Source: Candidatus Aenigmatarchaeota archaeon
GTDB taxonomy: Archaea; Aenigmatarchaeota; Aenigmatarchaeia; CG10238-14; SpSt-28
Direction of reading: 5' to 3'
Length of the DNA stretch: 61,100 nt
Assembly: GCA_025057985.1 (NCBI GenBank)
Contig: JANXEV010000003.1
Location: 1 to 61,100 of the forward strand
In this document: positions 43,792-43,819 of the stretch, in pieces
Numbering within the stretch: the first letter of the stretch is position 1
Layout of the letters: each line of letters opens with the position of its first letter
Translations under genes and position numbers: made by a program
The notes under the pieces: model-generated
Databases searched by the model: none
What the model saw: the letters and a program-made list of their open reading frames with translations, nothing else
Told to the model about the DNA's origin: nothing

Positions 43792-43819
43792 ATTAGAGAT
43801 AATGGTACTTATCTCTAAA
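43792..43819. other. dif: dif-like Xer recombination site
   Basis: ATTAGAGATAA-TGGTAC-TTATCTCTAAA: 11-6-11 layout with perfect 10-bp inverted arms in a 240-bp intergenic gap. Closely resembles the Thermococcales dif as I recall it. Confidence 0.8.

What the first reader, a model, noticed from the sequence alone, without database searches (positions are those of the whole stretch)
43792..43819. Chromosome dimer-resolution site (dif) identifiable directly from sequence
Seen: A-TTAGAGATAA-TGGTAC-TTATCTCTAA-A with perfect 10-bp arms. Against the Pyrococcus abyssi dif as I recall it (ATTGGATATAA-TCGGCC-TTATATCTAAA; needs verifying), there are two mismatches in the left arm and one in the right. 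It is intergenic and borders the most accessory-rich part of the window. Inference: it marks the terminus region of a DPANN-type chromosome and explains the local clustering of orphan genes.
Basis: partly seen in the sequence, partly recalled or inferred. Interest (0 to 1): 0.7.

Follow-up and report, generated by a model that had tools for sequence, protein, structure and literature searches.

The report
dif-like recombination site, non-canonical Xer recombinase
The 28-bp palindrome is real, single-copy and conserved, and is most likely the site where this tiny hot-spring archaeon's only tyrosine recombinase separates joined sister chromosomes; that enzyme is not a standard XerA, and nothing shows that the site marks the replication terminus.

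Summary
A-TTAGAGATAA-TGGTAC-TTATCTCTAA-A lies at 43792-43819, between two convergent genes, and matches the validated Pyrococcus abyssi dif at 22 of 28 positions.

A weight matrix built only from relatives' sites scores it 29.6 bits. The next best site in the 554-kb assembly scores 15.5.

The arms are conserved and the spacer varies in 16 related Aenigmarchaeota genomes.

Across 118 genomes of the order, the motif follows one recombinase family. It occurs in 14 of 29 genomes that have the family and 5 of 89 that lack it (p = 8e-7). The 5 exceptions match the control rate.

The motif lies 3-19 kb from the recombinase gene, and 44 bp upstream of it in one genome.

Three genomes of a sister genus carry canonical XerA instead. 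They have a different palindrome (CGTATAA-N6-TTATACG) at the same locus.

The window's recombinase falls below the curated XerA cut-off (123.6 against 220 bits). Its nearest outside relatives are mobile-element integrases.

The terminus claim is not supported. Skew does not flip at the site, and orc1/cdc6 lies only 9-22% of the genome away in relatives.

Verdict: a dif-type site (confidence 0.7) of a variant Xer system. Interest is moderate.

The parts
43792..43819 (.). 28-bp dif-like core: left arm 43792-43802 (ATTAGAGATAA), spacer 43803-43808 (TGGTAC), right arm 43809-43819 (TTATCTCTAAA).
   Evidence: 29.6 bits against 15.5 for the next best. Arms invariant and spacers different in 16 related genomes. 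22/28 identical to P. abyssi dif.
43776..43786 (+). Extra half-site TTATCTCCAAA: a direct copy of the right arm with one mismatch, 7 bp upstream of the left arm. It has no partner arm.
   Evidence: The weight matrix gives 14.0 bits for this half but -7.9 for the supposed left half at 43759. A copy with the same 33-bp start-to-start spacing is present in G007 and G008. Compare DYAD2 beside the Sulfolobus dif, which binds one Xer subunit.
24831..25760 (+). Only tyrosine recombinase of the assembly (309 aa, 'type A'), the presumed enzyme for the site. Catalytic R148, H252-x-x-R255, H278 and Y286 align with XerA.
   Evidence: Orthologues at 52-81% identity occur in 29 of 118 genomes of the order.
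43679..43712 (+). Conserved promoter-like motif TTATTCTCACCAAAATATGTTTTGTAGTATATAA between the small gene and the site.
   Evidence: Seen directly in the sequence. It is conserved upstream of the site in several lineages. In G064 it precedes the site and the recombinase gene itself. Its function is inferred, not shown.
43434..43658 (+). Small conserved gene (67-74 aa in relatives) that ends about 80-135 bp before the site in all six same-genus genomes examined. No Pfam hit.
42104..42982 (-). Gene for a weak winged-helix protein whose ends are encoded by 10-nt tandem DNA repeats. It is the constant neighbour of the site (0.4-1.1 kb away) in recombinase-positive genomes.
   Evidence: It is present in 70 of 118 genomes, including many that lack the site.

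Best explanation
The palindrome is the core recombination site, of dif type, for the chromosome's single Xer-like tyrosine recombinase (window 24831-25760).

Inferred mechanism, by analogy with P. abyssi, T. acidophilum and Sulfolobus XerA: one recombinase monomer binds each 11-bp arm. Two sites on a chromosome dimer synapse. The Tyr286 nucleophiles cut at the arm/spacer borders, 6 bp apart, and two rounds of strand exchange through a Holliday junction return monomers. The asymmetric spacer TGGTAC gives the site its direction.

Shown here: the site exists, is unique and is conserved; it has dif architecture; and it co-occurs and co-varies with the recombinase type.

Inferred only: binding, cleavage and the dimer-resolution role.

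The enzyme is not a canonical XerA. It looks like an integrase-related lineage that takes the place of XerA in part of this Aenigmarchaeota order.
For: 1) The 11-6-11 architecture and the ATAA-N6-TTAT core match the feature most conserved among archaeal dif sites.

2) The site is 22/28 identical to a biochemically validated dif.

3) It is unique: 29.6 bits against 15.5 for the next best position in the genome.

4) In 16 related genomes the arms are conserved while the spacers and flanks diverge.

5) Across 118 genomes the strict core GAKATAA-N6-TTATMTC occurs in 14 of 29 genomes with a type A recombinase and in 5 of 89 without (Fisher p = 8e-7). The rate without matches the reversed-pattern control of 7 hits. 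Of those 5 hits, the 3 in genomes where the winged-helix gene was found (G023, G088, G107) lie on other contigs than it; G038 and G111 have no detected copy. At least one strict hit inside the 14 (G078) also looks like chance, because it lies inside an ORF.

6) The site lies 3-19 kb from the recombinase gene wherever both are on one contig. In G064 it is 44 bp upstream of the recombinase start codon, as in the bacterial single-recombinase systems XerS/difSL and XerH/difH (own knowledge).

7) Three genomes of genus g17 carry canonical XerA (XerA_Arch 270.9 bits, above the cut-off). They have a different palindrome, CGTATAA-N6-TTATACG, between xerA and the same winged-helix gene. So the arm sequence changes with the recombinase type at a constant locus.

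8) This protein is the only tyrosine recombinase in the assembly, and its catalytic residues are intact.

9) Contigs from four hot-spring metagenomes cross the site without rearrangement.
Against: There is no biochemical evidence. The recombinase fails the curated XerA threshold, and its nearest relatives outside the order are mobile-element integrases, so a Xer role is inferred from context.

The site is tightly linked to a conserved winged-helix gene and a small gene, and it lies downstream of a promoter-like motif. Another protein could therefore bind it.

No terminus signature was found.

The assembly is 88.8% complete, so a second copy cannot be excluded.

Eight type A genomes were not shown to have a site. 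They are fragmented or were not examined.
Confidence: 0.7

Rival explanations
1. The palindrome is an operator or binding site for a protein of the adjacent conserved module (the winged-helix/array protein at 42104-42982 or the small protein at 43434-43658). It would control a promoter that reads rightwards through it.
For: The module and the palindrome stay together while both outer flanks change. Two of the only four exact TTATCTCTAAA 11-mers in the genome lie inside the winged-helix gene. A conserved promoter-like motif lies just upstream of the site.
Against: The winged-helix gene is present in 70 of 118 genomes, yet the motif follows the recombinase family instead. In g17 the same gene family sits beside a different palindrome together with a different recombinase. 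The gene downstream of the site is different or convergent in nearly every genome, so there is no constant regulated target. The 22/28 identity to a validated dif would have to be coincidence.
Confidence: 0.13
2. It is a genuine site of the type A recombinase, but its main role is not dimer resolution. It could be a chromosomal landing pad (attB-like) for mobile DNA that uses the host recombinase, or an autoregulatory site left over from a time when the recombinase gene lay next to it.
For: The closest outside relatives of the recombinase are integrases at the edge of element-like gene sets in TACK archaea. The flank beyond the site is variable in all lineages and holds orphans or a HicAB-like pair. 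Extra lone half-sites occur beside the main site in G000, G007, G008 and G064. In G064 the site lies in the recombinase gene's upstream region.
Against: No second dif-like site brackets any insert in this genome. The nearby cassette is bounded by 71-nt repeats unrelated to the site. The element-borne homologues carry no such palindrome within 10 kb. Metagenome contigs show no alternative junctions at the site. These roles could also coexist with dimer resolution, as they do in bacteria.
Confidence: 0.12
3. It is an RNA hairpin, such as the 3' end or terminator of the small gene's or VIT gene's transcript, or a chance palindrome.
For: It lies between the 3' ends of two convergent genes. Shuffled genomes yield about 1.5 perfect 10-6-10 repeats. 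Symmetric changes in the outer arm positions, as in G020 and G013, are also what a stem would show.
Against: No T-run follows the site on either strand. The inner GATAA/TTATC is invariant rather than co-varying. The sequence matches dif sites of other phyla. It co-occurs with a recombinase family. Its neighbours on one side change orientation and identity.
Confidence: 0.04

Closest known systems
Archaeal XerA/dif (P. abyssi, T. kodakarensis, T. acidophilum, S. solfataricus)
   Same: The site is 28 bp with two 11-bp inverted arms, a 6-bp spacer and an ATAA-N6-TTAT core. It is single-copy and is served by a single recombinase with no FtsK. It is 22/28 identical to Pab dif and 18/28 to Tko dif. 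As in Sulfolobus, a partial extra half-site sits beside it, and its position need not be the terminus. As in T. kodakarensis, it lies between convergent genes, and DNA-binding-protein features surround it.
   Different: The recombinase is not an XerA orthologue by the curated threshold (123.6 against 220 bits; PDB XerA E = 1.6e-17, against 1e-55 for the true XerA of sister genera). Nothing has been tested biochemically.
Bacterial single-recombinase replacements of XerCD: XerS/difSL and XerH/difH (own knowledge; review PMC5357621 listed)
   Same: A divergent single tyrosine recombinase takes the place of the canonical Xer in a subset of lineages and has its own version of dif. The recombinase gene lies close to the site: 44 bp in G064 and 3-19 kb elsewhere. 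It is nearly mutually exclusive with the canonical enzyme, overlapping in 2 of 29 genomes.
   Different: This is a different domain of life and a different protein lineage. Here the arm sequence stays close to the canonical archaeal dif, whereas difSL and difH are atypical.
Integrative elements that exploit Xer (IMEX, e.g. CTX-phi/TLC in Vibrio, the gonococcal genetic island) (own knowledge)
   Same: Variable, orphan-rich DNA abuts one side of the site, and lone half-site copies lie beside it.
   Different: No second dif-like site bounds an insert. No element genes were recognised in the flank.

Membership tests
dif-type chromosome dimer resolution site | Two roughly 11-bp inverted arms separated by a 6-bp spacer. 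| tested here: met
   10 perfect plus 1 outer position per arm, with spacer TGGTAC.
dif-type chromosome dimer resolution site | The conserved inner TAA-N6-TTA core, and similarity to validated archaeal dif sites. | tested here: met
   ATAA-TGGTAC-TTAT. 22/28 identical to Pab dif and 18/28 to Tko dif.
dif-type chromosome dimer resolution site | Single copy per chromosome. | tested here: met
   within an assembly that is 88.8% complete and in 37 contigs. One robust site per relative; the extra strict hit in G002 lies inside a coding sequence.
dif-type chromosome dimer resolution site | A cognate chromosomal Xer-type tyrosine recombinase is present and evolutionarily linked to the site. | tested here: met
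   The assembly has a sole PF00589 protein. Co-occurrence is 14/29 against 5/89, p = 8e-7. The arm sequence co-varies with recombinase type.
dif-type chromosome dimer resolution site | Specific binding and recombination by the recombinase. | not testable with these tools
   This needs purified protein and plasmid substrates.
dif-type chromosome dimer resolution site | Location in the replication terminus. This defines dif in bacteria but not in archaea, as Sulfolobus shows. | tested here: inconclusive
   No skew flip at the site. orc1/cdc6 lies 9-22% of the genome away in relatives. The origin itself has not been mapped. The k-mer skew attempt was uninformative.
XerA (NCBIfam NF040815 recomb_XerA_Arch, equivalog) | Score at or above the curated cut-off of 220 bits. 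| tested here: not met
   123.6 bits, although XerA_Arch is still the best-scoring family. The G035 protein of a sister genus scores 270.9.
XerA (NCBIfam NF040815 recomb_XerA_Arch, equivalog) | Tyrosine-recombinase catalytic residues (R, H-x-x-R, H, Y) and a two-domain layout. | tested here: met
   R148, H252/R255, H278 and Y286 align with TaXerA and with the canonical XerA. The N-terminal SAM-like domain is only weakly detected.
Attachment site of an integrated element / IMEX | Two related sites bracketing the inserted DNA. | tested here: not met
   No second site scores above 6 bits in 40-61 kb.
Transcription-factor operator | Position upstream of a constant regulated gene, or several copies forming a regulon. 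| tested here: not met
   The site is unique, and the downstream gene differs or is convergent among relatives. A promoter-like motif upstream keeps this reading alive at low probability.

The most novel reading that the evidence does not exclude
In part of this Aenigmarchaeota order, the canonical XerA was replaced, at the same chromosomal locus, by an integrase-derived recombinase with its own dif variant. If so, this is an archaeal counterpart of XerS/difSL and XerH/difH. The site, the winged-helix gene with phased DNA arrays, and a promoter together would form a conserved 'resolution hub'. Its far side would serve as a landing zone for variable genes, possibly comparable to the dif-adjacent domain boundary of T. 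kodakarensis.
Probability: 0.35. Interest if true: 0.6.

Novelty: new variant of a known kind. Interest (0 to 1): 0.4.

Why it matters
Chromosome-dimer resolution has been studied in only a few cultivated archaea, and I found no description of dif in DPANN archaea in the searchable literature.

This locus offers a testable recombinase/site pair from an uncultivated lineage with a tiny genome. It shows two recombinase families alternating at one conserved locus, each with a matching change in the site. That pattern is a natural experiment on how recombinase specificity and site sequence co-evolve.

It also cautions against reading an archaeal dif as a terminus marker.

One sister genus has no tyrosine recombinase at all. 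That raises the question of how those cells cope with chromosome dimers.

Tried and rejected
- Cdc6_C (PF09079) as an origin marker gave only weak hits. TIGR02928 replaced it.
- Loci from other genomes are not available in the Python box, so whole-contig skew of relatives could not be computed.
The second attempt gave only 29 hits with no pattern.
- The alternative candidate C11:40958 (4 mismatches) does not score among the top sites with the relatives' weight matrix.
- The 'second dif-like site' at 43759-43786 has only one matching half.
- A search for a second site bracketing the accessory genes found none.
- The palindrome was sought near element-borne homologues of the recombinase in TACK archaea and was not found.
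- Metagenome contigs were checked for junctions at the site and showed none. They break instead at the 71-nt repeat at 44.38 kb.
- The strict-core hits in G002:C49 and G078 lie inside coding sequences and were set aside as chance.

Full report
**The observation**

The window reads A-TTAGAGATAA-TGGTAC-TTATCTCTAA-A at 43792-43819. The arms are perfect 10-bp inverted repeats around a 6-bp spacer.

The site lies in a 241-bp gap between two convergent genes. A small + strand gene ends at 43658. A VIT-family - strand gene has its stop at 43900.

Cortez et al. 2010 used ATTGGATATAATCGGCCTTATATCTAAA (PMC2958812). That gives 22/28 identities. The T. kodakarensis dif validated by ChIP, TTTTGATATAATGTACCTTATATGACAA (PMC11840125), gives 18/28.

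The same paper names TAA-N(6-8)-TTA as the most conserved feature of archaeal dif sites. That feature is present here.

**Is it more than chance?**

The window is the whole of contig C31 in a 554-kb, 37-contig assembly that is 88.8% complete.

The site is the only match in the assembly up to 3 mismatches in the 20 arm positions. It is also the only perfect 10-6-10 inverted repeat. Shuffled genomes, however, give 1.5 such repeats on average, so the palindrome alone proves nothing.

The specific sequence does. A half-site weight matrix was built from 14 relatives' sites with this genome left out. It scores the site 29.6 bits. The next two positions score 15.5 and 15.0, which is what the tail of 553,096 positions predicts.

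**Conservation**

A pattern search in relatives found one site with two or fewer arm mismatches in five of eight same-genus genomes. The arms were conserved and the spacers were all different. An alignment shows that only the arms are invariant while the flanks diverge.

Sixteen sites from five genera were oriented by a common neighbouring gene. All share GATAA-N6-TTAT, mostly as GAGATAA-N6-TTATCTC, with free spacers.

Contigs from four hot-spring metagenomes, including a strain about 97% identical, cross the site with no alternative junction.

**The recombinase**

ORF 24831-25760 is the only PF00589 protein in the assembly. Its best solved relatives are XerA of T. acidophilum (E = 1.6e-17) and of P. 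abyssi (1.3e-12). R148, H252-x-x-R255, H278 and Y286 align with the catalytic residues.

It is not a canonical XerA. NCBIfam XerA_Arch is its best family, but at 123.6 bits against a cut-off of 220. Public records call its family 'site-specific integrase' of Aenigmatarchaeota.

Homologues about 50% identical and about 400 aa long occur in Nitrososphaerota, Methanomethylicia and Nezhaarchaeales. The three loci I inspected (one of them from Nezhaarchaeales) sit beside DUF5906, STIV_B116-like, phage-metallopeptidase and orphan genes, which are mobile-element contexts. Those loci do not carry the palindrome.

**Two recombinase types and two palindromes at one locus**

I searched all 118 genomes of the order.

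- Type A (orthologues of the window's protein) is present in 29 genomes, including all nine of the genus.
- About 40 other genomes carry a 270-290-aa protein with a very strong PF00589 match. The one I tested, from G035, scores 270.9 bits on XerA_Arch and E = 1e-55 against P. abyssi XerA. It is only 28% identical to type A. I call this type B, the canonical XerA.
- Only G080 and G094 have both types.

The strict core GAKATAA-N6-TTATMTC occurs in 14 of 29 type A genomes and in 5 of 89 others. The reversed control pattern gives 7 hits. Fisher p = 8e-7. At least one hit within the 14, in G078, may itself be chance, because it lies inside an ORF.

Relaxed versions were then found at the expected locus in eight more type A genomes: G004, G026, G029, G031, G033, G064, G081 and G082.

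Wherever both lie on one contig, the site is 3-19 kb from the type A gene. In G064 it is 44 bp upstream of the start codon, with an extra left-arm copy abutting the ATG.

In three type B genomes of genus g17 (G035, G103, G105), a different palindrome lies between the canonical xerA and the same neighbouring gene. It reads CGTATAA-N6-TTATACG (TTATATG in G105).

The arm sequence therefore changes with the recombinase type at a constant locus. That is the strongest argument that the recombinase reads the palindrome.

**The constant neighbour**

In all type A genomes examined in which the winged-helix gene was detected, the site lies 0.4-1.1 kb from that gene. It encodes a protein with a weak winged-helix motif (window 42104-42982, - strand). 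The ends of the gene are written by 10-nt tandem DNA repeats.

In the genus, a small gene of 67-74 aa lies in between.

I add two points. It occurs in 70 of 118 genomes, far more than carry the site or type A. The strict-core hits in genomes without type A are not near it. The palindrome therefore follows the recombinase, not this gene. This is the main evidence against the operator rival.

A promoter-like motif (43679-43712) precedes the site in several lineages. In G064 it precedes the site and the recombinase gene together. This suggests an ancestral order of winged-helix gene, promoter, site, recombinase gene.

**The terminus claim**

GC skew in the window is dominated by gene strand. I therefore used 4-fold degenerate sites and corrected for gene orientation.

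The + strand is G-enriched on both sides of the site, and the cumulative curve rises across the whole contig without an inflection at 43.8 kb.

In relatives with long contigs, the single full-length orc1/cdc6 gene lies at these distances from the site (site positions):

| Relative | Distance from site |
|---|---|
| G007 | 65 kb |
| G033 | 140 kb |
| G081 | 176 kb |
| G039 | 196 kb |

These distances are 9-22% of genomes of 0.7-0.9 Mb.

The origin itself has not been mapped, so this is indirect evidence. A k-mer proxy for skew on a 791-kb contig failed.

[quoted passage not shown] An archaeal dif does not by itself mark a terminus.

**The accessory flank**

The side of the site away from the winged-helix gene is non-syntenic in every comparison:

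| Genome | Genes on the far side of the site |
|---|---|
| This window | VIT gene plus orphans |
| G007 | a 534-aa and a 426-aa protein (not searched against family libraries) |
| G002 | a 273-aa protein of unknown family |
| G006 | a 307-aa protein (metallo-beta-lactamase/RNase Z-like motif by eye) |
| G004 | a 435-aa protein (not searched against family libraries) |
| G080 | a 654-aa protein |
| G082 | a HicAB-like pair |

. The descriptions for G006 and G082 are my reading of the translations, not family-search results.

The association with gene turnover is therefore real. The mechanism is not shown. No second dif-like site exists.

The adjacent single-gene cassette (44538-45515) is bounded by 71-nt direct repeats at 44342-44412 and 45580-45650. 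Metagenome contigs break at those repeats, not at the site.

**The upstream 'second dif'**

The upstream 'second dif' noted earlier (43759-43786) has only one good half (14.0 against -7.9 bits). That half-site, 43776-43786, recurs with the same spacing in G007 and G008. It resembles DYAD2 of Sulfolobus, which binds a single Xer subunit.

**Verdict**

The dif reading is the best-supported explanation (0.7). It rests on architecture, similarity, uniqueness, conservation, and co-occurrence and co-variation with the recombinase. Binding and recombination remain inferred.

The enzyme should be called a Xer-like, integrase-related recombinase rather than XerA.

The terminus inference is not supported.

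The system is best described as a variant of the known Xer/dif kind. I rate its interest as moderate.

Noticed in passing
window 42104-42982 (- strand): A gene for a weak winged-helix protein whose N- and C-terminal parts are encoded by 10-nt tandem DNA repeats (GATACGAATC read in three frames, giving 'DTNRYESIRI'). The repeat unit differs between genomes. The gene occurs in 70 of 118 genomes of the order.
   Followed up: partly
window 44342-44412 and 45580-45650: 71-nt direct repeats (96% identical) bracket a single orphan gene (44538-45515) next to the 5' end of the VIT gene. Contigs from four metagenomes break at 44379, and two strains show a rearranged junction (45543 to 44249).
   Followed up: partly
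genus g2 of the same family (G009, G012, G014, G015, G017, G018): Six genomes up to 94% complete have no PF00589 tyrosine recombinase at all and no dif-like core. How they resolve chromosome dimers is an open question.
   Followed up: no
L051 (G064:C3) 3362-3440: The dif-like site lies 44 bp upstream of the type A recombinase start codon. A second copy of the left arm alone (CTTAGAGATAA) lies 10 bp before the ATG. This may point to autoregulation.
   Followed up: partly
L065, L067, L068 (TACK archaeal contigs): Homologues of the recombinase, about 400 aa and about 50% identical, sit beside DUF5906, STIV_B116-like, phage-metallopeptidase and orphan genes. They look like integrases of integrated elements or proviruses.
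   Followed up: partly
window 43292-43353 and 43377-43438: A 62-nt direct repeat (74% identical) containing TCGTTTTATTCAC lies in the AT-rich 450-bp gap between the winged-helix gene and the small gene. TTCATTTCGTCTA is also repeated, at 43095 and 43145.
   Followed up: no
window 43434-43658 (+ strand): A small gene conserved in six same-genus genomes (67-74 aa, motif KGVW.HE...GGKA.V.EE.IIY) always ends just before the site. It has no Pfam hit.
   Followed up: no
whole contig C31 (the window): At 4-fold degenerate sites the + strand is G-enriched whatever the gene orientation, across all 61 kb. The contig behaves as one replication arm if this skew is replication-linked.
   Followed up: partly
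L050 (G082:C4) 3753-4221: A HicA/HicB-like pair of small genes lies directly beside the dif-like site in this relative. The assignment is by eye from the translations.
   Followed up: no
L062 (G002:C49) 353-1312: A 319-aa ORF with LAGLIDADG-like motifs (by eye) contains a chance match to the strict dif core.
   Followed up: no
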